Below, in pieces: positions 4,059 to 14,514 of a stretch of DNA of 64,000 nucleotides (position 1 is its first letter; each line of letters begins with the position of its first letter). Origin of the DNA: a virus (taxonomy: Duplodnaviria; Caudoviricetes); the IMG/VR virus record IMGVR_UViG_2597490201_000002, positions 1 through 64,000 of that record; one strand, given 5' to 3'. The notes beneath the pieces were generated by a model. That model searched no databases. It had not been told where the DNA came from and saw only the letters and a program-made list of their open reading frames with translations. A program made the translations under genes and the position numbers.

Positions 4059-5153
4059 TCACGCTACCACCGTGATTTTCTCGGCCGCTCGAGTCACCGC
4101 CGTGTAGAGGTGACGATCGCGGTCATCGCGGAAGACGGTGCTCTCGTCGAAGAGATAGACGTTTTCCCATTGGCTCCCCTGGGCCTTGTGGACCGTCAGC
4201 GCGTAGCCGAAGTAGAACTCGTCGTACCGGCGTCGATCCTTCCAATCGAACTCCTCTTCCCGGCCCTGGAACCACTTTTCGTGAGTGAAGACCAAGGCGT
4301 CACCGGCGCGTGCGCCAGCGTCGTCTGGGCGAAGCAAAAGCTCCATATTGCCGCGACCTTTGGGGAAGGTCTGCTTTACGAGCCATAACTGGCCGTTGAG
4401 GAGGTTCTTCTGGTGATTGTTCCGCAGGCAAACGAGGCGGTCGCCCGGCACAGGCTCGCGGTGCGGCATCCCCTTCAGTTGACGGATGCGATCATTGTAG
4501 ATGATGCGGGTGGCGTTCTTGCCGCATAGCACCTGGTCGGCAGTCAGAACGTCATCGCGGTCGACATTGGCTGCGCGGATCACCTTGCTCTCGCCATAGG
4601 TGCCGAAATCGAGCCCGTTGCCCTCTCGAATGTCCATCGACATGCGGATGATCGGATTGTCGGCGGCCTGACGGTGGATCTCGGTGAGCATGATGTCTGG
4701 CCGGACGTCGGTGAAATAGCCGGCGTCCTTGACTGGCGGTAGCTGGAACGGATCGCCCAGCACCAGAACCTTTTTCCCGAATGAGAGGAGGTCGCGCGCC
4801 AGCTCGGCGCCGACCATCGACACCTCGTCGATGACCACGAGATCCGCGTCGACTATTTCACTATCGGGGTTGAGGACGAACTTCGGCTCCCCGCCGATTT
4901 CGTTGACCATTGTGTAGATAAGGCTGTGGATCGTGCTGGCGCCGAAACAGCCACGCTTGCGCATCACCAAGGCGGCCTTGCCTGTGAAGGCGGCGAATAC
5001 GACCGTGTTCACCTCTTCGGCCAGGTGCACCGCGAGCGTTGACTTGCCGGTACCAGCCCAGCCGAACAGCCGGAATACCTGCTGTCCCTGCGGGTCACGT
5101 AGCCAGGTCGACACCTGCTTCAGGGCGCCGTCTTGCTGGGGAGACCACTGCAT
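4059..5153 (-). CDS. RecD/Dda-like SF1 helicase
   Basis: Walker A GWAGTGKS, AFTGKAA, TIHS, VIDEVSMV, GDPFQLPPV, YALTVHKAQGSQW and LYTAVTRA. Confidence 0.9.
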   Translation of the reverse strand: MQWSPQQDGALKQVSTWLRDPQGQQVFRLFGWAGTGKSTLAVHLAEEVNTVVFAAFTGKAALVMRKRGCFGASTIHSLIYTMVNEIGGEPKFVLNPDSEIVDADLVVIDEVSMVGAELARDLLSFGKKVLVLGDPFQLPPVKDAGYFTDVRPDIMLTEIHRQAADNPIIRMSMDIREGNGLDFGTYGESKVIRAANVDRDDVLTADQVLCGKNATRIIYNDRIRQLKGMPHREPVPGDRLVCLRNNHQKNLLNGQLWLVKQTFPKGRGNMELLLRPDDAGARAGDALVFTHEKWFQGREEEFDWKDRRRYDEFYFGYALTVHKAQGSQWENVYLFDESTVFRDDRDRHLYTAVTRAAEKITVVA

Positions 5154-6985: not shown

Positions 6986-8115
6986 CCATTCGTCTCCGCG
7001 TCAGCGAGCACTTCGTCGTACCTGGCAAGCCAGAACCCGGTCTGAGCCTCATTGAGGCCTTCGGGCGCTTCACGCTCGGCGCCGGACAGCGCCGTTGAGG
7101 TCGCATCCCGCAGCACTTCTGGGTCTGCCTGCTCGTCGCTTGGTGGGTTCTTGGTCTTCAAGACGGCACCGGAGGAGGAGCGGATTTCGCTGAAGAGCGC
7201 CGTGATGGCGGTATGGCCATTCACGTGCTGCCCCGCGTCAGCGGGAACGATCAGCTCGCCCGCGCCGCCGCGGGAGTAGCCAGTGGGCAGGATCCCAGAC
7301 TTGATGGCACGAATGGCATACTCGCGGTTAAGCCAGTCCACTGCGCTGGGATCCGTGATCGGTGAGGCCACCGTCTCGGAAACCTCTGGCTTTCGTTCCT
7401 GGGCCTGCGGCGCCAGCTCTGCGGCAACGGTGTCAGCATTGAAGCCCGTCGATGACTGGGATGCCGCAAGGCGTGCGGCCAGGCCGGATCCAGCGGGAGG
7501 CGTGACGTCGCGCATCTGCTGCGCCCCCTCCATCTCGTCGATGTCGTAGATGCCGAGGAGGACGTCCGGGAAATGCCGGCGGCAAAGGGCCCGACCGGAG
7601 TAATAGCAAAACTGCTGGTCCGGATCGTTCTTCCACAGCGGCGAGTTCTTCGGCGTGATGACCGAAAACTTCGGCGACTTGTATTCGACCTCTTCACCTT
7701 CCAGGGTGGTCGCCGATGCGATGCAGAGGCGGTCGTTGCCTTCGCCTTCAAACCGGTACCGGATGCGCCCCTTGATCGGCGCACGGCGGAGGATGACGGC
7801 TTGAATCAACTGGCTTTCATAGGCGAGCTGGTCGTTGACCTCATAGCTCTTGTTGGCCACGGCATAGGGCGACATGCCCCACTCGACGGCTTGGATAACG
7901 ATGCCGAAGCATGCGCCAGGGTTGTTGCGCAGGTGCTTGCGGACCGCCTTGTCCGATCCGGCCATGAGATAGGCGATATCGCGCGCTTCAGCGACGGTGT
8001 GGAAGACGATGCCGCCACCTTCAGATGAAAGGCGCGTCAGGGTGTTGCGTGCCTGCGCTGGCGCCGGCAATGCGGCCTGGTCGGTGGTGGGGTGCTCGGT
8101 AAGGTCGATGGTCAT
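6982..8115 (-). CDS. RecT-like single-strand annealing protein
   Basis: NPGACFGIVIQAVEWGMSPYAVANKSY, NSPLWKNDPDQQ and RALCRRHFPDVLLGIY; adjacent to a RecE-like gene. Confidence 0.85.
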   Translation of the reverse strand: MTIDLTEHPTTDQAALPAPAQARNTLTRLSSEGGGIVFHTVAEARDIAYLMAGSDKAVRKHLRNNPGACFGIVIQAVEWGMSPYAVANKSYEVNDQLAYESQLIQAVILRRAPIKGRIRYRFEGEGNDRLCIASATTLEGEEVEYKSPKFSVITPKNSPLWKNDPDQQFCYYSGRALCRRHFPDVLLGIYDIDEMEGAQQMRDVTPPAGSGLAARLAASQSSTGFNADTVAAELAPQAQERKPEVSETVASPITDPSAVDWLNREYAIRAIKSGILPTGYSRGGAGELIVPADAGQHVNGHTAITALFSEIRSSSGAVLKTKNPPSDEQADPEVLRDATSTALSGAEREAPEGLNEAQTGFWLARYDEVLADAETNG

Positions 8116-9074
8116 GCAAACTGCCTTTCGAGCATGTCGAGACGCTTGTCGAAGTTCTGACGGCCGGTGTCGGGAAGGGAGAGGGGCTGGGCATCCGCCT
8201 GGCTGGCCGTGGGGCCCGGCCAATAGCCGCTCTTCATGCAGTGCTTGAAAATCTGAATGGCGGTGAACACAGCGCGCTCACCCCGAATGATGTCTTCGTC
8301 GAGCAGGGTGCGGATCGACACTGCGTGCGTGTTGCCGGTATCGACGAAGACGAGATGGAAGCCTTCCATGTGACGGCCAAGCACGGCGGCAGAGCCCATC
8401 CCGACAAGGGCGGCCTGCACGAAGTATCCGCGGTCCATCACGGTCCAGCTCAGATCCCGGTCTTCGACGCCGGAGCTGGTGGTCTTGAGGTCGGCAAAGT
8501 CGTTGCTGTCGCCGGGGATTGCGTCGGGGCGGGCCTTCAGCCAGACCCCGTCATATTCCCAGATCAGCGAGCGTTCGATTTCGCCCGAGAGCGCGCCGCC
8601 TTGCGCGACCAGCGGCGTATTGGCCAGGCCGCAATTGGTCATGCCCTTCTGCCAATCGAGAACGCCAGCCATCCCCCTGATTTGCTCGACCTGAGTGGGT
8701 GAGAGGACGGCGCGGCCTTCCTCGGCGCGAGCTTTCAGCCAGTCCTTACAAACGGTGCGGTTGCCGTGCCACTTCTCGCCTCCCAACGTTTCGGGGCGCG
8801 CGACAAAGTGCTTGCCGAAGTCGGCTTCGCCGAGCGCAAGGTGGTGCGCAGCGCGGCCGAGAACATAAGCCTCCTTCTCCGGCTCTTCCGCACGGTTAGG
8901 GTTGAGTTCGGAGTGCTTCCAGAATTCTGCCGGGCTGCGGAGCAGCCGACGGATGCCGGTACTGGAGAGCGATGGGCCTTCGGTACACTGGCGGTGATAC
9001 CAGTCGTTCGACATGTCATAATAGCCTAGCGACGTGATGATCTCGCCGTCTTCGACTTTACGAAGTTCGGTCAT
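8112..9074 (-). CDS. RecE/exonuclease VIII-like PD-(D/E)XK nuclease
   Basis: YH...LSSTGI, LGRAAH, ERSLIW, KARPD, DLKTT and YFVQAA. Confidence 0.85.
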   Translation of the reverse strand: MTELRKVEDGEIITSLGYYDMSNDWYHRQCTEGPSLSSTGIRRLLRSPAEFWKHSELNPNRAEEPEKEAYVLGRAAHHLALGEADFGKHFVARPETLGGEKWHGNRTVCKDWLKARAEEGRAVLSPTQVEQIRGMAGVLDWQKGMTNCGLANTPLVAQGGALSGEIERSLIWEYDGVWLKARPDAIPGDSNDFADLKTTSSGVEDRDLSWTVMDRGYFVQAALVGMGSAAVLGRHMEGFHLVFVDTGNTHAVSIRTLLDEDIIRGERAVFTAIQIFKHCMKSGYWPGPTASQADAQPLSLPDTGRQNFDKRLDMLERQFA

Positions 9075-9081
9075 GGGTGCC

Positions 9082-10278
9082 TCAAAATTTGATGGTGGTG
9101 TGGGGGATGCTGCCGGCGGCGATCGCGGTGATGATCTTCCACGCCTTGTCCTTGCCGATACCGGCCGCCCGCATGACAGCTTCCTCGGCATCGAGCATGA
9201 TTGTGGTGCGGTGCCGCTGATCGGCCGCGCGAGCATCGGCCTCTTCTTCCTCGCGAAGACGTTGGGCTTCCGCCTCGTCCAAGACGCGCTGAGCGGCTTC
9301 GCGCTCACGCCGCTGGGCGTCTGCCTCCGCTTCGGCGGCACGCGCTTCTTCCGCGGCGACCTGTTCTACGCGCTGCCTTTCTTCGACATCATCGAGTGAT
9401 TTCAGGGCGGCCAGCTTAGCGGCCTCGGCTTCCTCGCGGCGATCGCCAAAGGATTCGTCGATGACGACCTTCTCCTGCAGCTCCCGCCGAAGGATGATTA
9501 TGGGGTAGGGGCGGCCGTCTATCAGGCCGAGGCCGCAATTGACGATGTGTTTGATCTGGGCATCGACATAGGCTGCCTTGCGTTCCGCGTCCTCGCGCGC
9601 CTTCCTCTCGGCCGCCTCCGCCGCGTTGCGGCGCTCCGCCTCCTCCCTAAGACGCGCAAGTTCGATGCGCTCTTCGTCGAGATGGATCTGGCGCTGGAGG
9701 GCAGAGTTCAGGATGGCAAGGCTGGTGTCGCGTGCGTCGGAGGCGACGTCGAAGAAATCGCCGAGGTAGTCCAGATGGAGCTCGGTGTTCTGAACCTGCT
9801 TGATGCGGGCCCGCAGGGTCTCGGTCGTGTCCTCGATCGTTACCTTGCCGGCTTGCTTCAGGCCGTCGACGATGGCCTGACACTGGGTCTTCCGCTTGGC
9901 TTGCTCGGCCTCCCAGTCGTCGAGGGGCTTGCGAGCCTTGTCCCGAAGGGCATCAAGCCGGTTGCGCAACTTCCGGCGTTCAGCATTGACCGACTGGACC
10001 TTCTTGTTCGCTTCCTGGATCAGTTCGGCGCCGGCGTCGTCGATTGCGGTCTTGGTCCGGCTGATTTTGTAGGCGAGCGAGGCCACGGCCTTGCGGCCCT
10101 TATCACTTGCCAGGTCAACTGGGGCCGTCGTGATTTCCTGCTCGATGTGAGCAAACAGCTCGTCTGCCTTGGCGGGATCGTTGAACACCAGGGCAGGGGT
10201 AGTCTCTACCAGCACGGCGATGCTGGTGGTGGCGCTCGACATGGCGCTCTCTCCGATGCTTGGGGTGGCGTCCGTCAT
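9082..10278 (-). CDS. Coiled-coil phage protein
   Basis: DLASDKGRKAVASLAYKISRTKTAID...RKPLDDWE is a common lambdoid early protein pattern with E/A/R-rich helices. Confidence 0.7.
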   Translation of the reverse strand: MTDATPSIGESAMSSATTSIAVLVETTPALVFNDPAKADELFAHIEQEITTAPVDLASDKGRKAVASLAYKISRTKTAIDDAGAELIQEANKKVQSVNAERRKLRNRLDALRDKARKPLDDWEAEQAKRKTQCQAIVDGLKQAGKVTIEDTTETLRARIKQVQNTELHLDYLGDFFDVASDARDTSLAILNSALQRQIHLDEERIELARLREEAERRNAAEAAERKAREDAERKAAYVDAQIKHIVNCGLGLIDGRPYPIIILRRELQEKVVIDESFGDRREEAEAAKLAALKSLDDVEERQRVEQVAAEEARAAEAEADAQRREREAAQRVLDEAEAQRLREEEEADARAADQRHRTTIMLDAEEAVMRAAGIGKDKAWKIITAIAAGSIPHTTIKF

Positions 10279-10439
10279 GGCTGAACCACCAAAACGAGGA
10301 CAAAGAGGGCGACGAGGAAAGCCAGCACCGCCCAGTAGTAGGGAGGAGCGTCAGCCGACAGCACCCAAAGGGCGTAGACGAAGAAGGCCGCGAGACCGGC
10401 ACTTGCGCCCCAAGCGATAATCGTCATTGGGCGGTTCAT
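10275..10439 (-). CDS. Small two-TM membrane protein (54 aa)
   Basis: Read manually: MNRPMTIIAWGASAGLAAFFVYALWVLSADAPPYYWAVLAFLVALFVLVLVVQP. ATGA overlaps at both ends. Confidence 0.6.
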   Translation of the reverse strand: MNRPMTIIAWGASAGLAAFFVYALWVLSADAPPYYWAVLAFLVALFVLVLVVQP

Positions 10440-10675
10440 GACTTGCCGCCGATCAAGCGCTCGACGTCCTCGACGACAGCTTCAATGGTGGTGTCGACCG
10501 TCCAGCCGTCATCAGGGATCTGGATTTGAAACTCGACCTCGATCTCCATAAGCACATCGAGAATGTCGAGGCTGTCCATTTGGAGGTCGCCCAGTGTCGT
10601 CGAGCCCGGCTTGGAATCGGCGGAGTGCGCGAGAATTTCGAGGATGCGGTTCTGGTTCGGGGTTAGGGTGCTCAT
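10436..10675 (-). CDS. Acyl carrier protein homolog
   Basis: 79 aa and acidic; LGDLQMDSLDILDVLMEIEVEFQIQIPD matches the ACP phosphopantetheine site (DLGxDSLD..E....EEEF.IEIPD). Confidence 0.85.
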   Translation of the reverse strand: MSTLTPNQNRILEILAHSADSKPGSTTLGDLQMDSLDILDVLMEIEVEFQIQIPDDGWTVDTTIEAVVEDVERLIGGKS

Positions 10676-11166
10676 TTCGGCGCTCCGACGAACATGGCGA
10701 GCGTCGCGGCGACTGGCATTTCCTTCAATGCAGGGCTTGCAGCAGCCGCCACCCGCTCAAGGGCTTTCCCCGTCGTCATCATCGCTATGGAAGCCATCAC
10801 CGACACCTGGGCGGTAAACTTCGCCTGTGTCTGACGCGGCAAGCGGGAGAAGTCCGCCTTCATCTGCCGCTCAAACGACCGGTTCGCCTTGCGCCGGATT
10901 GCCTCAGCGGCATTACCGCCTTCGGCAACGATCTCTTCGTCGTTGAGACGCTTCACGCCTTCGCCGATGAGGGTGCCGAACACCATTCCTTCGTCGCGAA
11001 GAAGCCGGCGCAGGGCTGTTCGCAGGGGGCCTGATGACCCGTCGACGTCACGAGAAATCACGGCACCCAGTTCTTTGTAGGTGAACGTCTGGCCGACAGT
11101 CGCCGATGACATGTGCTGCATCAGCAAGCGCGCATCAGCGGACATCTGGAAGGTTGGGCTGGTCAT
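10672..11166 (-). CDS. Hypothetical protein, possible winged-helix N-terminus; next to RAMP-like gene
   Basis: GQTFTYKELGAVISRDV...LRTALRRLLRDEGMVF...GVK is wHTH-like. RBS AAGGAG is present. Confidence 0.65.
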   Translation of the reverse strand: MTSPTFQMSADARLLMQHMSSATVGQTFTYKELGAVISRDVDGSSGPLRTALRRLLRDEGMVFGTLIGEGVKRLNDEEIVAEGGNAAEAIRRKANRSFERQMKADFSRLPRQTQAKFTAQVSVMASIAMMTTGKALERVAAAASPALKEMPVAATLAMFVGAPK

Positions 11167-11182
11167 GGGGTCTCCTTTTGGT

Positions 11183-11249
11183 GGCTGTTGCTATGCGCAG
11201 CACTGAGGGGTGGTGCGTGGCGGATCGACGAGGTGCGGGGACTAGACCG
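11183..11249 (-). repeat. Pentamer-periodic tract D (downstream of RAMP-like gene)
   Basis: + strand from 11190: gctat gcgca gcact gaggg gtggt gcgtg gcgga tcgac gaggt gcggg gacta gaccg. Preceded by ggctgtt, the same end motif as tract C. Confidence 0.7.
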
Positions 11250-11814
11250 TGGACCACTGGAAGCCGGTGACGTGGAAGCGGCCGAGGAAGCCGCCCTTCT
11301 CCGGGCGGAAGCGGCCAATACCGACGAGGCGTCCAGCCTCAGTGATCGCCTGTTCGAAAATCGCTTCGGGGATGATGTCGTCGAGGATCGCAAAGCGAGC
11401 GACCGCCTCGTATTCCTTGATGATCGGGAAGCGGCGACGGACGCGCTTTCCCGACCCGCGAACGCCGTCGGCATTCGCCCAAATATCAATCTGTTCAAGA
11501 TCGTCTTTATGGATGCCGAGCGAGACGTCGGCCTCGCATATCTGGCCGGCTGTGAAGAACTTGGTGTAAGTGGACTTGCCGCGACCCGGGATGCCGATGT
11601 TGAGGCGCTTCACCGCTTCGTCCACGGACATCTTGAGTGCCATCGCGGGGATGCACACGATGCCACTGCTATCGTAGGTGGCTTTCTCGCGCCAAAGACG
11701 CTTGTCCCAACCGTCCGCGCTTTCTTTCTCGAGCTTCGGAAACTGATCCGGGTCGACCGCCTTCGATTGGCTGTAGGGAGTGGCGGACTTAATGGTGACG
11801 AGACAGATTTTCAC
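11242..11814 (-). CDS. Stand-alone Cas7/RAMP-like protein
   Basis: RAMP hallmarks: N-terminal strand VTIKSATPY, IPAMALKMSV (cf. IPGSSLKG), and a C-terminal glycine-rich loop AGRLVGIGRFRPEKGGFLGRFHV. RBS AGGAGG at 11819-11824. Confidence 0.75.
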   Translation of the reverse strand: MKICLVTIKSATPYSQSKAVDPDQFPKLEKESADGWDKRLWREKATYDSSGIVCIPAMALKMSVDEAVKRLNIGIPGRGKSTYTKFFTAGQICEADVSLGIHKDDLEQIDIWANADGVRGSGKRVRRRFPIIKEYEAVARFAILDDIIPEAIFEQAITEAGRLVGIGRFRPEKGGFLGRFHVTGFQWSTV

Positions 11815-11829
11815 GATGACCTCCTATTT

Positions 11830-12195
11830 GGCTGTTGCGATGCGGAGCGGAGCGTAGAGCTGCGTTACGAAGCGTGGCGCTGCGCCATGATGTGATGCGG
11901 CTCGGCGATCGGGGCTTGCCCGGCGCCTGACGCGGTCAAGCGTCTGGAACGAGACAAGCTGTGGCTGGTGAGTGGCAGAGATGAGCGTAGCGAGGCGTTG
12001 CGTAGCGTCGCGCCGAGCAGCGGCGTGTTGCGCCGTTTTCGAACAACCGTCCGGAGACCAGCACCACGCGGGTGCTGGCGACCTGAAGGTTGGGGCTGGT
12101 GAGTGGTGATGCGGCGAGATGCGCCGCGTAGAGCGGCAGAGCTGCGCGGAGAGACGCGTCGTAGAGGTTCCCCTCCCCAAGCCGGTCCACGCGGA
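11830..12195 (-). ncRNA. Array of three ~130-nt units, each a hairpin plus ~14 pentamers (constant triplet + variable NN); candidate guide RNAs
   Basis: 5-nt register tracts at 11837-11911, 11970-12039 and 12101-12170. Shared ggctg motif at 11830/11963/12094 and shared acgcgg motif at 11930/12066/12189. Strand is inferred from the operon. Confidence 0.7.
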
Positions 12196-12236
12196 ATCAG
12201 CCAAGCAAGGGAACGAGTGATGGTTGACAGCAGCGC

Positions 12237-12635
12237 TCACGCCACCTCTCCCACAAAACGGGTCCAGAGGGCGTCGAGCCAGCCGTGCATGACAGCAATC
12301 ATCGCCTCGTAGGGGCGAAGCTCTGTCCACGCCGAGCGATCAGCGACGACCCCGGGGGCGGACGAGCGGGCGGCATTCCAAGCAGTGTCGAGCCGCCGCT
12401 GGTGGACGATGATGGCGGCGGTGAGCACCGCCATCGAATGTGTTGGTGGGAAGTAGGGGGCGGGAGACGCGACAGCGGAAAAGAGCTTTGCCAAGATCGC
12501 ATCTTCATCGACTGCGCCTACGCCATCACATGGCGGCGCTGCCAGCGGAAAGTCGGTAGGGGCGCGGCCGTGCCACTCCTCAAATGCCTTGAGGAAAGAC
12601 GCTTGGGCCGCCGAGGATGGTGGTAGGGGCTGCAT
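12237..12635 (-). CDS. Hypothetical protein, first gene of leftward operon 1
   Basis: 132-aa ORF with a GGAG RBS, just downstream of the operator cluster. Confidence 0.6.
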   Translation of the reverse strand: MQPLPPSSAAQASFLKAFEEWHGRAPTDFPLAAPPCDGVGAVDEDAILAKLFSAVASPAPYFPPTHSMAVLTAAIIVHQRRLDTAWNAARSSAPGVVADRSAWTELRPYEAMIAVMHGWLDALWTRFVGEVA

Positions 12636-12666
12636 CGGTTGCTCCGGTTCGGGACAACCAATGCAT

Positions 12667-12724
12667 AACCAATCAATTTGTGATCAGCAACAAAAAAGAT
12701 GGTTATGCGACAAATCTTTTGGTT
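12667..12724. promoter_or_regulatory. OL-like operator cluster of repressor 1 (ACAAA-N5-TGGTT x3)
   Basis: 12667-12681 (reverse), 12690-12704 and 12710-12724. The same motif occurs between CI1 and Cro1. Confidence 0.7.
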
Positions 12725-12881
12725 TTTTGCCATTGACAGAGGCATGGCAAATCCCCCTATAACCCCCTTGGGAGTTCTGGGTGAAATCGAGTCACACTGA
12801 GGATCTGGAGATAGTTTAGGGGCCGTAAGGCCCCCTATGTACATACCTAGTAGATATACCGCGCGAGGCTTACGCCGCGCT

Positions 12882-13478
12882 TTATTCCTCGAAAAACTCT
12901 AGCTGAAAACAAAACTGGGGTGGAGTGATGCCGCCCCATTCCGGCGTCGTATAGGCCCTGGCGAACCAGCCTTGGGCAAGAACGAGGTCGTCGGAGGTGC
13001 CGTGAGGAATGTTGTCTCCTCGTACCAGGGCATTCTGCAGGTCTGCGGCAGCTTGTGCAAACAAGGGCTCGGCTTCGACATCTGGGATGTTCAGCTTGTT
13101 CTCAACAGCGTTCAGCAGGGTCGCAATGACCTGCTCAAATCTACTCACCAGGTACTTATCGTCACTTTCCGGGACCAGGTTGGCGCAGATATCCAGAAGT
13201 GCAAAGGAGCCGTCTGGCCTGCAGTCGAGATAGCCAGTGTGGTTCTTGATCGCTATTTGAGGTTGCTCCATCCGGTCTTCCAGGACCGCCTCGCCGACTG
13301 TCGCGTGGCGCAGTTCATCAAAGTGAAACGGCTTGTCGAATAAGGCCGGGACCGTCGAGCGCGTGGATCGGAGATCTTCGAACTCATCGACCAATGCTTG
13401 GCAAGACAAGCCGGCATCACTTGCAACGGCCGGGGTTGCGAAAATAACCAAGCATACCAGCCAATGTGCTCGCATCAT
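12882..13478 (-). CDS. Exported protein in immunity region (possible superinfection exclusion)
   Basis: Signal peptide MMRAHWLVCLVIFATPAVA; co-transcribed downstream of CI. Confidence 0.6.
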   Translation of the reverse strand: MMRAHWLVCLVIFATPAVASDAGLSCQALVDEFEDLRSTRSTVPALFDKPFHFDELRHATVGEAVLEDRMEQPQIAIKNHTGYLDCRPDGSFALLDICANLVPESDDKYLVSRFEQVIATLLNAVENKLNIPDVEAEPLFAQAAADLQNALVRGDNIPHGTSDDLVLAQGWFARAYTTPEWGGITPPQFCFQLEFFEE

Positions 13479-13726
13479 TCGATCTCCGGTATCTCGCCTT
13501 CAGAAAATAGCGTGACCGGCTCCCCGAATTCACCGTTGATCAGGTCAGCCTCGCGGGACCAAGCGATCACGCCTTCATATTTTCCGCTCGCCCAAAGTAG
13601 CCTTGCCTGTTGCTTCGCTCCAGATTCGGACTGAGCTTCCCGGGCTTCAAATGCGGGCCGAAGTTCGCCCTCTTCGTCACGAGCAAACGCTACATAAACG
13701 ATGAGTTTCGTTGGCAAAGGGCTCAA
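13475..13726 (-). CDS. Small conserved protein, homolog of 36717..36974
   Basis: GVIAWSREADLINGEFGEPVTLFSEGEIPE. TTG start overlaps the CI stop. Confidence 0.65.
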   Translation of the reverse strand: MSPLPTKLIVYVAFARDEEGELRPAFEAREAQSESGAKQQARLLWASGKYEGVIAWSREADLINGEFGEPVTLFSEGEIPEIE

Positions 13727-14514
13727 TTGATTCTTCCAAATCTCCAGAGCACCGCTCCAATAATTTGGACCTCGTCCAAATTCCACTCGCGGGGAGCGTG
13801 TTTGGGGTTGTCCGAAATAATCCGAACGGTCTGGATTTCGTCGTTAGGCTTGCTCGTAAGCTCGAGGCGCTTGATGACAATCCCGCCAAAGGCGTCTGTG
13901 AGAGCATAGATCCCGTCCGGCGAGGGAAGGCGATGCTTCGTGTTCACCACAACGAACTCCCCATCCAGAACGGTGGGCGACATGCTGTCGCCCGAAGACG
14001 GAAGTATCGCTAAGTCCTCAGGGCTAACGCCTGCGGCCCGGAGTAGTGCAAGGGGAAAGCGCCAAAAGTCGCTTACCGCTTCGGCTGAGAAGGTCATTCC
14101 ATTGCGGCCGGGCACTCCTTCGTGGACCAGCGTTAGGCCGCCCCCGCCCATTCCAGCAATGACATCGATCTGAGGGACAGTGCCTTCGGGTATGCCTTGG
14201 CGGCCCGTTTCAGAGCCGACTGTCATTCCCTCGGGCAGGGCTGCATCGACTGCATCCGGGTCGAAGCTCTCAAAGACTCTAGGTCGCGGGGCCCGGGGCA
14301 TCTCCTGTTCGTCGTAAAGATAGAGAACATCGACCTGCAAGGATCTAGCCAGAACGTCCGTGTAGGTGGGGTTCTTCGTTACACCCATCTCAACCGCGGC
14401 AATTGCCTGCTGTGTCTTTCCTACACGTTTGGCCAGCTCTTGCTGAGATAGCCCCATTGCTTCTCTGGCCTGGATTACACGTTTCGGATTTATCGATCTC
14501 TGAGACTTTTTCAT
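13723..14514 (-). CDS. CI-like repressor 1 (XRE HTH + S24 peptidase)
   Basis: AREAMGLSQQELAKRVGKTQQAIAAVE HTH; AG cleavage site (IAGMG), GDSMSP and IKRL catalytic residues. Confidence 0.9.
   Translation of the reverse strand: MKKSQRSINPKRVIQAREAMGLSQQELAKRVGKTQQAIAAVEMGVTKNPTYTDVLARSLQVDVLYLYDEQEMPRAPRPRVFESFDPDAVDAALPEGMTVGSETGRQGIPEGTVPQIDVIAGMGGGGLTLVHEGVPGRNGMTFSAEAVSDFWRFPLALLRAAGVSPEDLAILPSSGDSMSPTVLDGEFVVVNTKHRLPSPDGIYALTDAFGGIVIKRLELTSKPNDEIQTVRIISDNPKHAPREWNLDEVQIIGAVLWRFGRIN

What the first reader, a model, noticed from the sequence alone, without database searches (positions are those of the whole stretch)
11830..12195. Modular ~130-nt unit architecture of the array, with readable variable code
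Seen on the + strand. Unit C (from 11837): gcgat gcgga gcgga gcgta gagct gcgtt acgaa gcgtg gcgct gcgcc atgat gtgat gcggc tcggc gatcg. Unit B (from 11970): gagtg gcaga gatga gcgta gcgag gcgtt gcgta gcgtc gcgcc gagca gcggc gtgtt gcgcc gtttt. Unit A (from 12101): gagtg gtgat gcggc gagat gcgcc gcgta gagcg gcaga gctgc gcgga gagac gcgtc gtaga ggttc. All 14 pentamers of A and of B start with G. Each unit is bounded by ggctg (11830, 11963, 12094; ggctggtgagtgg is identical in A and B). On the other side each has ccgg plus a stem-loop containing acgcgg (11930, 12066, 12189; perfect ccagcacc/ggtgctgg stem at 12058-12078), and the stem sequences differ while pairing is kept. Inference: these are handle/processing signals around three different guides. 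B and C share ga-ga-ta and tt at equivalent positions, so they may be related guides.
Basis: partly seen in the sequence, partly recalled or inferred. Interest (0 to 1): 0.85.

Follow-up and report, generated by a model that had tools for sequence, protein, structure and literature searches.

The report
Prophage VIPR guide-RNA array, CGC type

Summary
Three units spaced 131 and 133 nt apart carry a strong 5-nt periodicity; two of them are the top period-5 windows of the 5.05-Mb genome.

The gene just downstream (11242-11814, minus strand, 190 aa) is a minimal Cas7-like RAMP. It aligns to the Vipr protein of phage SUSP1 (hhalign 95%). A conserved 164-aa partner gene follows.

Period-5 tracts flank homologues of this gene in 57 of 59 fetched loci. 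Three positions are fixed and two are free (0.06 and 0.02 bit).

This is a VIPR locus (bioRxiv 2026) with four vrRNA tracts of 13, 14, 13 and 10 pentamers.

The RNA strand is the minus, gene-sense strand. It reads CGC-NN, and each tract ends in CAGCC. Hairpins follow tracts A and B.

Its strand is reversed, so its 5' and 3' handles are swapped, and its third stem-loop does not fold.

I found no target and no RNA data. The CGC scaffold is not named in the text of the four VIPR papers, although non-GGY scaffolds are.

This scan has noted CGC-type VIPR loci before on other DNA (105 notes).

Verdict: a variant of a known kind, of moderate interest.

The parts
12099..12163 (-). vrRNA tract A: 13 pentamers of the form CGC-NN (variants CTC, CAC, AGC, TGC, TAC)
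   Evidence: Register call; period-5 autocorrelation; strict genome scan.
12094..12098 (-).
   Evidence: CAGCC lies at the 3' end of 26 of 113 tracts, all in the close clade, and within 25 nt upstream of 0 of 113.
12044..12092 (-). Hairpin following tract A (candidate 3' tail or processing and stability element)
   Evidence: -28.5 kcal/mol, z -3.22, 1 of 200 shuffles as good. Inverted repeat I1.
11968..12037 (-). vrRNA tract B: 14 pentamers
   Evidence: (top period-5 window of the genome).
11963..11967 (-). CAGCC, 3' end of tract B
11914..11959 (-). Hairpin following tract B
   Evidence: -24.0 kcal/mol, z -2.45, 5 of 200 shuffles as good.
11835..11899 (-). vrRNA tract C: 13 pentamers, directly upstream of the vipr ribosome-binding site
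   Evidence: second-best period-5 window of the genome.
11830..11834 (-). CAGCC, 3' end of tract C, followed by aaataggagg and the GTG start of vipr
11242..11814 (-). vipr: 190-aa minimal Cas7-like RAMP protein
   Evidence: AF2 pLDDT 95.2. Foldseek top hits are type VII Cas7 and Csm3, E 2.9e-8. VIA Z 12.3 to Cmr4/Csm3. hhalign to the SUSP1 195-aa protein gives probability 95.1%, E 3.4e-8. phrog_4652 only; no Pfam hit.
11188..11237 (-). vrRNA tract D: 10 pentamers between vipr and the partner gene (weaker)
   Evidence: (family D1). It falls below the 0.50 threshold and below the strict test.
11183..11187 (-). CAGCC, 3' end of tract D, followed by the RBS of the 164-aa gene
10672..11166 (-). Candidate vap (vipr-accessory protein): 164 aa, with an N-terminal winged-helix-like domain and a helical tail
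   Evidence: tblastn finds homologues beside vipr in 20 loci. AF2 pLDDT 86.6. Fold matches to wHTH regulators are only weak (E 0.012 and worse; Z at most 7.4). hhalign to the SUSP1 neighbour gene gives probability 46%, E 2e-4.
12164..12236 (-).
   Evidence: z +2.0 for 12174-12236.

Best explanation
The region is the guide-RNA array of a prophage VIPR (Viral Interference Programmable Repeat) system. It is transcribed on the minus strand together with the early leftward operon.

There are four tracts: A, B and C upstream of vipr, and D between vipr and the partner gene. Each is a run of 10-14 pentamers, C-G-C-N-N.

The mechanism is inferred by homology with the SUSP1 system. One Vipr protomer binds each pentamer. 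The filament sequesters the fixed triplet and presents the two N bases. These pair with a double-stranded DNA target that reads NNxNNx..., skipping one base per unit. The resulting R-loop triplex blocks transcription of a rival phage or other mobile element. The 164-aa winged-helix-like neighbour would be the accessory Vap protein.

Each tract ends in CAGCC. Tracts A and B are followed by stable hairpins that may define or protect 3' ends. Tracts C and D run straight into the ribosome-binding sites of vipr and vap.

Shown here:
- the periodic tracts;
- NN-restricted variation across relatives;
- the RAMP fold of the neighbouring gene and its homology to SUSP1 Vipr;
- the conserved partner gene;
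- the prophage setting;
- the gene-sense strand of GGY tracts in SUSP1 and in distant relatives.

Inferred, not shown:
- transcription and processing of the tracts;
- Vipr binding to a CGC scaffold;
- the 1-nt skip rule for this clade;
- silencing, and the identity of the targets.
For: (1) Periodicity and uniqueness.

(2) The 190-aa protein is a RAMP. AF2 pLDDT is 95.2. Foldseek gives 138 PDB matches at E <= 0.001, led by Cas7, Csm3 and Cmr4. VIA gives Z 12.3. A profile of 52 family members aligns to the 195-aa phiSUSP1 protein at probability 95.1%, E 3.4e-8, over 68 columns that include the G-loop. That SUSP1 protein carries R138, C173, D177, W178 and R179 as named in the cryo-EM paper.

(3) 57 of 59 fetched loci that encode a homologue have period-5 tracts directly upstream of the gene, directly downstream of it, or about 550-770 nt downstream. 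The 59 include 8 duplicates. The two loci without tracts are short partial matches.

(4) Over 1808 pentamers, p1 is C in 89%, p2 is G in 72% and p3 is C in 94%. p4 and p5 carry 0.06 and 0.02 bit, and all 16 dinucleotides are used.

(5) Strand.
- In phiSUSP1 the GGY-NN tracts lie on the gene-sense strand, one upstream of the 195-aa gene and three downstream of its neighbour. This matches the paper's description.
- Distant family members L053 and L061 carry GGC-NN on the sense strand.
- L050 has an 11-of-12 sigma-70-like promoter just upstream of a GAA-NN tract on the sense strand.
- L020 has sense-strand tRNA-like minihelices between AAC-NN tracts.
- The sense reading x-R-Y-NN fits GGY and the published variants YNNNG, GAC/NN and CAC/NN.
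- Tracts C and D abut ribosome-binding sites.

(6) The partner gene is conserved in 20 loci.

(7) Prophage context: CI-like repressor, exonuclease VIII-like gene and phrog_1376.
Against: - No target was found for any of the four guides.
- Across 113 related guides, the 1-nt skip rule scored no better than 0-, 2- or 3-nt skips or shuffled guides. The database was small, about 0.49 M positions.
- No RNA run was listed, so expression, strand and processing are untested.
- The canonical GGY is not present. In SUSP1, changing GGY abolishes silencing (figure-legend passage).
- The G-loop motif GxGRFRP is the same in relatives that use GGC, GAC, AAC, GAA, CAC or CGC, so I cannot say how CGC is read.
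- There is no invariable structured 3' tail. Only CAGCC is shared, and only in the close clade (26 of 113 tracts). The L021 spacers do not fold.
- The plus strand of the whole gap folds better than shuffles (z -2.76), whereas the minus strand does not (z -0.71).
- The consensus scan found no promoter or terminator in 11000-13000.
- The winged-helix assignment of the 164-aa protein is weak.
Confidence: 0.82

Rival explanations
1. The guides would then be plus-strand RNAs antisense to vipr, reading GCG-NN, each starting at GGCUG and ending in a hairpin that contains ACGCGG.
For: The plus strand of 11815-12236 folds with z -2.76, against -0.71 for the minus strand. On the plus strand every unit begins with ggctg. 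In L014 a weak hairpin with a T-run lies on the antisense strand after the tract.
Against: - GGY tracts are gene-sense in phiSUSP1 and in family members L053 and L061.
- There is a sense-strand promoter in L050 and sense-strand tRNA-like elements in L020.
- G-C-G does not fit x-R-Y, the pattern shared by GGY, YNNNG, GAC, CAC, WGT and TGH.
- An antisense RNA for units C and D would need a promoter inside the coding starts of vipr and vap. The scan found none.
- The third plus-strand '3' hairpin' does not fold.
- G-rich strands fold better through G-U pairs in any case.
Confidence: 0.06
2. The tracts are mainly cis-acting binding sites rather than trans-acting guides. Vipr would polymerise on the leaders of its own operon mRNA to control translation of vipr and vap, or the tracts would act as decoys that soak up a rival phage's Vipr.
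For: Tracts C and D end 6-10 nt before the Shine-Dalgarno sequences of vipr and the 164-aa gene. No target was found. Decoy and redirecting vrRNAs are published for satellites (abstract of 10.64898/2026.10.15.759431).
Against: The NN positions are fully variable and differ between tracts and between relatives. That is what a targeting code predicts and is unnecessary for a pure operator. Tracts A and B are separated from any RBS by hairpins. This reading does not exclude guide function and could hold in addition to it.
Confidence: 0.08
3. The locus is a decayed or inactive VIPR remnant. The tracts are drifting copies with no present function.
For: Many pentamers depart from CGC (CTC, CAC, TGC, AGC, ATC, TAC). 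Tract D is short and weak. No target was found.
Against: The vipr and 164-aa frames are intact, and the family's invariant residues are defined by an alignment in which this protein is the first row. p3 is C in 94% of the 50 window pentamers. The discovery paper itself notes frequent internal degeneracy of vrRNAs. The architecture matches relatives.
Confidence: 0.04

Closest known systems
Type II VIPR of Escherichia phage SUSP1 (and the Pseudomonas fulva prophage): Vipr + vap1 + vrRNAs. Sources: bioRxiv 10.64898/2026.04.26.720920 (Results and parts of Methods read), 10.64898/2026.04.26.720927 (Results part 1 read) and 10.64898/2026.10.15.759431 (outline, abstract and one Methods section read).
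   Same: - A small stand-alone RAMP protein, homologous by profile.
- An adjacent small gene with a weak profile match to SUSP1's neighbour gene.
- Tracts of 10-14 pentamers, each with three fixed and two free letters.
- Tracts on the gene-sense strand, upstream and downstream of the genes.
- A phage or prophage setting and no CRISPR array.
   Different: - The fixed triplet is CGC, not GGY.
- There is no long invariable pseudoknotted tail. The tail is only CAGCC plus hairpins that differ between units and are absent after C and D.
- Three guides lie upstream of vipr and one between vipr and vap. SUSP1 has one upstream and three downstream.
- The two proteins share only 26% identity over the 68 aligned columns.
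- Nothing is tested experimentally in this clade.
Non-canonical VIPR arrays. Sources: 'NNNGG, YNNNG, NNNNG' in the discovery paper's Methods, and 21 clusters such as GAC/NN, CAC/NN, WGT/NN and TGH/NN in bioRxiv 10.64898/2026.10.21.760802 (passages and section 4.22 read).
   Same: Period 5, three constrained letters plus NN, and a neighbouring Vipr-like fold. Read from p3, CGC-NN is C-N-N-C-G, which fits YNNNG. CAC and GAC tracts occur in relatives of this very protein (L035, L056; L049, L019).
   Different: The strings CGC and GCG occur 0 times in the held text of the discovery paper and the genomic-language-model preprint, and CGC 0 times in the held text of the cryo-EM and competition papers, where GCG was not searched. 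Figures and supplementary data are not held, so the motif may be shown there. The strand in the second paper was set by embedding consistency, not by experiment.
Class 1 CRISPR-Cas effector backbones (Cas7, Csm3, Cmr4 on crRNA)
   Same: The same RAMP fold. Both are protein filaments on a guide RNA with periodic base flipping (described).
   Different: There is no CRISPR repeat-spacer array and no large or small subunit. The period is 5 with only 2 pairing bases, instead of 6 with 5 pairing bases. The locus is phage-borne.
TRAP-type RNA-binding rings on (G/U)AG-NN repeats. This was my first idea and comes from recall, not from any call.
   Same: RNA triplets spaced by 2 nt, read by one protein subunit each.
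   Different: No TRAP-like gene is present. The neighbouring protein is a RAMP. The repeats carry variable NN and occur as many different tracts. Rejected once the fold result came in.

Membership tests
VIPR system | Vipr protein: a minimal stand-alone RAMP (RRM core, G-loop, thumb) | tested here: met
   AF2 pLDDT 95.2. Foldseek hits Cas7, Csm3 and Cmr4 at E 2.9e-8. VIA Z 12.3, rmsd 3.4, 156 residues aligned. hhalign to the SUSP1 195-aa protein gives 95.1%, E 3.4e-8, covering the thumb end and the G-loop.
VIPR system | vrRNA tract: about 9-16 tandem pentamers with three conserved and two hypervariable positions | tested here: met
   Tracts have 13, 14, 13 and 10 pentamers. Information content is 1.32, 0.76 and 1.60 bit at p1-p3 and 0.06 and 0.02 bit at p4-p5 over 1808 pentamers. 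The caller selected on p1 and p3, so only the p4-p5 values are unbiased.
VIPR system | Canonical fixed motif GGY | tested here: not met
   The motif is CGC (C 89%, G 72%, C 94%). Only G2 and Y3 agree with GGY. It fits the published alternative class YNNNG.
VIPR system | Tract followed by an invariable, structured 3' tail | tested here: inconclusive
   CAGCC ends all 4 window tracts and 26 of 113 family tracts. Hairpins follow A and B and several relatives' tracts (z -2.45 to -6.3), but not the L021 spacers, and none follows C or D. No conserved tail sequence or covariation was shown.
VIPR system | Adjacent vipr-accessory (vap) gene, DNA-binding in types II, VI and VII | tested here: inconclusive
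   The 164-aa neighbour is conserved beside vipr in 20 loci. The model has winged-helix-like topology. Foldseek E is 0.012 and worse, to MarR, GntR and PadR regulators. VIA Z is at most 7.4. hhalign to the SUSP1 neighbour gene gives probability 46%.
VIPR system | Viral or proviral location | tested here: met
   CI-like S24 repressor at 13723-14514, exonuclease VIII-like gene at 8112-9341, phrog_1376 and a phage ACP. Relatives are found in 16 IMG/VR contigs.
VIPR system | vrRNAs encoded on the vipr-sense strand | tested here: met
   Met by comparison only: phiSUSP1 tracts; L053 and L061 GGC tracts; the L050 promoter; the L020 tRNA-like elements. There is no RNA evidence for this window.
VIPR system | Discrete ~100-nt RNAs that co-purify with Vipr | not testable with these tools
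   No RNA run was listed.
VIPR system | NN code matches natural targets by the 1-nt skip rule (80% or more of NN bases) | tested here: inconclusive
   - Own genome: best 20-21 of 28-30, equal to the shuffled null.
- 243 family genomes, guides B and C, up to 3 mismatches: 0 hits.
- 109 genus genomes, guide A core: 5 hits against 0 for the reversed control, but only 19-20 of 28 over the full guide. Four of the five lie in one host ABC-ATPase gene.
- IMG/VR: 0 exact 11-NN cores. The 8-NN seeds extended to at most 24 of 30, in unrelated AT-rich contigs and out of codon register.
CRISPR-Cas | Array of 25-40-nt direct repeats separated by unique spacers | tested here: not met
   The repeat finder and TRF on 10500-13500 show only the pentamer families.

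The most novel reading that the evidence does not exclude
Within one Vipr protein family (30-80% identity to this protein, same G-loop GxGRFRP) the fixed RNA triplet has switched repeatedly: GGC, GAC, AAC, GAA, CAC and CGC. If this is real, the scaffold is not read by the G-loop contacts described for SUSP1. Nature would then already hold a set of mutually orthogonal Vipr-scaffold pairs.

In addition, tracts that end a few bases before the ribosome-binding sites of vipr and vap may serve both as guides and as autoregulatory operators that match protein supply to guide number.
Probability: 0.25. Interest if true: 0.6.

Novelty: new variant of a known kind. Interest (0 to 1): 0.4.

Why it matters
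VIPR was described only in 2026, and all experiments so far use GGY guides from enterobacterial and Pseudomonas phages.

This locus and its roughly 50 relatives show that a large alphaproteobacterial phage clade writes the same architecture with CGC. Close relatives of the same protein use still other triplets. That gives a natural series for working out how the scaffold is recognised, and for building orthogonal programmable silencers.

For annotation, it explains long 'empty' C-rich gaps in prophage early operons. It also shows that the gaps must be read on the gene-sense strand.

It is not a new kind of system, and the scan has met this variant many times.

Tried and rejected
Rfam. Nothing near threshold in 10500-13500, and nothing at E <= 0.01 in six related loci.

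Coding. The 168-aa minus-strand ORF (11824-12330) has no Pfam or PHROG match. Period 5 is incompatible with a reading frame.

Early ideas, all dropped after the fold result: a TRAP-like ring site, a Rho rut site, a standby translation leader, and a DNA-level centromere or iteron.

Promoters and terminators. The scan of 11000-13000 found none. In L014 the same AT-rich stretch can be read as a sense promoter (my reading, not scored by the tool) or as an antisense terminator, so I did not use it as strand evidence.

Residue-scaffold covariation. I aligned SUSP1 D177, W178, R179 and R138 to R168, F169, R170 and F129. The GGC-using relative L053 has the same GxGRFRP as the CGC loci, so this explains nothing.

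Targets. See the membership test for the counts. Further points:
- Cross-search of 113 related guides against 51 loci plus the window: 1-nt skip gave a mean best fraction of 0.662, against 0.654, 0.655 and 0.668 for the other skips and 0.657 for shuffled guides.
- Window guides against relatives' loci: not above 100 shuffles.
- Guides A and D were not searched in the 243 family genomes.
- Guides B and C were searched there with their semi-conserved last two NN included, which lowers sensitivity.
- Guide D was not searched in IMG/VR.

Other searches.
- RNA: no RNA holder was listed; read laying was not used.
- tblastn of Vipr against 50,697 phage records: no match.
- Vipr protein search of 400 other genomes of the class: 0 matches.
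- ARAGORN on L020, L050, L053 and L049: 0 genes.

Not seen. Supplementary files and figures of all four papers. They may show a CGC logo, the VIPR type of this clade, or tRNA-like arrays.
Full report
WHAT IS THERE

The finding lies in a 422-nt gap (11815-12236) between two minus-strand genes of a prophage early operon. The neighbourhood, all on the minus strand, is:
- a CI-like S24 repressor at 13723-14514;
- a 132-aa gene of unknown function at 12237-12635;
- the gap;
- a 190-aa gene at 11242-11814;
- a 75-nt gap;
- a 164-aa gene at 10672-11166;
- an ACP-like gene, a phrog_1376 gene and an exonuclease VIII-like gene.

The repeat finder gives the three units with 133- and 131-nt spacing at 65-79% identity. 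It also finds a shorter related stretch at 11186-11236.

Autocorrelation at lags 5, 10, 15 and 20 is 0.40-0.59, against about 0.25 background. Units B and C are the two strongest period-5 windows of the 5.05-Mb genome, and unit A is seventh. A stricter in-phase test finds only A, B, C and one chance site genome-wide. Rfam has nothing.

TURNING TO THE OTHER STRAND

I fetched homologues of the 190-aa gene from three collections:
- 2 from the species genome collection;
- 16 from IMG/VR;
- 41 from metagenomes.

In the first 18 loci, 16 have such runs between the previous stop codon and the ribosome-binding site of the homologue. L012 and L020 have none upstream.

Over all 59 loci, 8 of which are duplicates, 57 have period-5 tracts directly upstream of the gene, directly downstream of it, or about 550-770 nt downstream, that is after the next gene. 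The two without tracts (L058, L060) are short partial matches.

WHAT THE GENE IS

The 190-aa protein has no Pfam family and no sequence relative in the PDB. About 2000 uncharacterised relatives exist.

A model built on 52 sequences has pLDDT 95.2. It matches Cas7 of type VII, Csm3 and Cmr4 (Foldseek E 2.9e-8, 138 hits at E <= 0.001; VIA Z 12.3). I had suspected a periodic RNA-binding protein.

A look-up of earlier notes of this scan pointed to VIPR systems, and I then read the papers myself. The discovery preprint (10.64898/2026.04.26.720920; Results, type-classification Methods and figure-legend passages) describes:
- a minimal RAMP protein, Vipr;
- an accessory gene, vap;
- vrRNAs of 9-16 YNNGG pentamers followed by a structured 3' tail;
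- recognition of double-stranded DNA by the NN bases with one skipped base per unit;
- transcriptional silencing of rival phages and satellites.

Its Methods mention alternative NNNGG, YNNNG and NNNNG repeats.

The cryo-EM preprint (10.64898/2026.04.26.720927; Results part 1) shows one protomer per pentamer and names the residues that hold G1, G2 and Y3.

A later preprint (10.64898/2026.10.21.760802; passages and section 4.22) reports 21 clusters with non-canonical triplets such as GAC, CAC, WGT and TGH.

DIRECT LINK TO THE REFERENCE SYSTEM

I fetched phiSUSP1. I recalled the accession, and one search confirmed the record. Two minus-strand genes, of 195 and 146 aa, are flanked by long gaps.

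Read on the gene-sense strand, the gaps hold GGT/GGC-NN tracts. One lies upstream of the 195-aa gene and three lie downstream of the 146-aa gene, as the paper describes.

The family profile aligns to the 195-aa protein with probability 95.1% (E 3.4e-8, 68 columns, G-loop included). That protein has R138, C173, D177, W178 and R179 where the cryo-EM paper puts them.

The 164-aa neighbour is conserved beside vipr in 20 loci. It models with a winged-helix-like N-terminal domain (pLDDT 86.6). Its fold matches are weak, and its match to the SUSP1 146-aa protein is only 46% probable. I call it a candidate vap.

STRAND

Four independent lines place the RNA on the gene-sense strand.
1. The SUSP1 tracts are gene-sense.
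2. Distant members of this protein family (L053, L061) carry canonical GGC-NN on the sense strand.
3. L050 has an 11-of-12 promoter match just upstream of a GAA-NN tract on the sense strand. L020 has sense-strand tRNA-like acceptor/T-arm minihelices between AAC-NN tracts.
4. The sense reading C-G-C keeps G2 and Y3 of GGY and matches YNNNG. The antisense reading G-C-G matches none of the published variants.

Against this, the plus strand folds better than shuffles (z -2.76), while the minus strand does not (z -0.71). G-rich strands usually fold better, and tracts are expected to be protein-bound and unstructured. No RNA run was listed, so this window has no direct strand evidence.

ANATOMY ON THE MINUS STRAND

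- Tract A: 12099-12163, 13 pentamers; CAGCC at 12094-12098; hairpin at 12044-12092 (z -3.2).
- Tract B: 11968-12037, 14 pentamers; CAGCC at 11963-11967; hairpin at 11914-11959 (z -2.45).
- Tract C: 11835-11899, 13 pentamers; CAGCC at 11830-11834; then the RBS and GTG start of vipr.
- Tract D: 11188-11237, 10 pentamers; CAGCC at 11183-11187; then the RBS of the 164-aa gene.

CAGCC ends 26 of 113 family tracts, all in the close clade, and never lies just upstream of a tract. Hairpins follow CAGCC in L005, L008 and L026 (z -3.8 to -6.3) but not in L021.

Over 1808 pentamers from 113 tracts in 42 loci:
- p1 is C in 89%, p2 is G in 72%, and p3 is C in 94%;
- p4 and p5 carry 0.06 and 0.02 bit;
- all 16 dinucleotides are used.

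The caller required C at p1 and p3 in at least 60% of a tract's pentamers. The fixed-position figures are therefore inflated by selection. The free-position figures are not.

The number of units differs between close relatives. For example, L021 (82% protein identity) has one tract upstream and five downstream.

TARGETS

I applied the published NN?NN scan.
- The own genome gives 20-21 of 28-30 matches, the same as shuffled guides. The 3-nt skip control recovers the tracts themselves.
- Guides B and C with up to 3 mismatches find nothing in 243 genomes of the family.
- The 11-NN core of guide A finds 5 sites in 109 genomes of the genus, against 0 for the reversed control.
  - Four of these are one conserved stretch of a host ABC-transporter ATPase, in codon register.
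  - Over the full 14-NN guide they reach only 19-20 of 28, below the 80% criterion.
  - I treat them as chance.
- IMG/VR holds no exact 11-NN core of A, B or C.
- The 8-NN seeds give 30, 18 and 8 hits. These extend to at most 24 of 30, lie in unrelated AT-rich contigs and are out of codon register.
- Related guides searched against the fetched loci and the window show no advantage of the 1-nt skip over other skips or shuffles.

The targets remain unknown. These searches were small next to those in the papers.

UNEXPLAINED

Relatives of one protein family with the same G-loop motif use GGC, GAC, AAC, GAA, CAC or CGC. The SUSP1 contacts cannot by themselves explain how the triplet is read.

NOVELTY

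VIPR is known. Non-GGY scaffolds are known in outline. CGC and GCG occur 0 times in the held text of the discovery paper and the language-model preprint, and CGC 0 times in the held text of the cryo-EM and competition papers, where I did not search GCG. A library search for 'vrRNA' listed only these four papers holding that term. Figures and supplements were not visible.

This scan already holds 105 notes on CGC-type VIPR loci in at least 84 genomes, and a note on this same stretch. I reached the same reading from my own tests.

I rate it a new variant of a known kind, of moderate interest.

Noticed in passing
L020:4245-4300, 4445-4500 and about 4590 (same contig as L052): In a low-GC relative, AAC-NN tracts are separated by a repeated element that folds as a 7-bp acceptor-like stem plus a 5-bp T-arm with loop UUCGAUU, preceded by a GGUUAGAGC D-loop-like string. 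It may be a tRNA-like processing signal (RNase P/Z) for a vrRNA array. The word tRNA occurs 0 times in the held text of the discovery and competition papers. ARAGORN and Rfam do not call it, and the fold z is only -1.7 to -1.9.
   Followed up: partly
L053, L061, L049, L019, L051, L020, L050, L035, L056: Relatives of the same Vipr family use different fixed triplets on the sense strand: GGC (L053, L061), GAC (L049, L019, L051), AAC (L020), GAA (L050) and CAC (L035, L056). All keep the G-loop GxGRFRP except L061, which has GLGDFRP.
   Followed up: partly
L050:2287-2316 and 2422-2438: A near-consensus promoter (TTGATA, 18 nt, TATAAT) lies directly before a GAA-NN tract, and a GC hairpin with T-runs on both sides directly follows it. 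This looks like a self-contained vrRNA transcription unit.
   Followed up: partly
window 12640-12880: An AT-rich gap upstream of the 132-aa gene contains ttgaca...tataac on the plus strand, followed by a GC hairpin (aggggccgtaaggcccct) near 12820-12840. It could be the early leftward promoter/operator region or a small plus-strand RNA. The consensus scan called nothing here.
   Followed up: no
G000 C3:32702-32791, C4:120389-120452, C15:53710-53772: Host intergenic palindromic elements whose loops hold (AGCGN) pentamer runs (for example gcgaagcgtagcgtagcgtagc) also score in the period-5 scan. They look like REP-type repeats, not VIPR tracts.
   Followed up: no
L119, L121, L122, L123 (genomes G443, G495, G516, G520): The core of guide A matches 19 of 22 bases, in codon register, to the Q-loop region (DVPASRRGIAMVFQ) of a host ABC-transporter ATPase in four genomes of the genus, but not in the window's own genome. 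I judged this chance: 19 of 28 over the full guide.
   Followed up: partly
window 10436-10675: An acyl-carrier-protein-like gene (PP-binding, phrog_5934) sits in the prophage early operon just downstream of the VIPR cassette.
   Followed up: no
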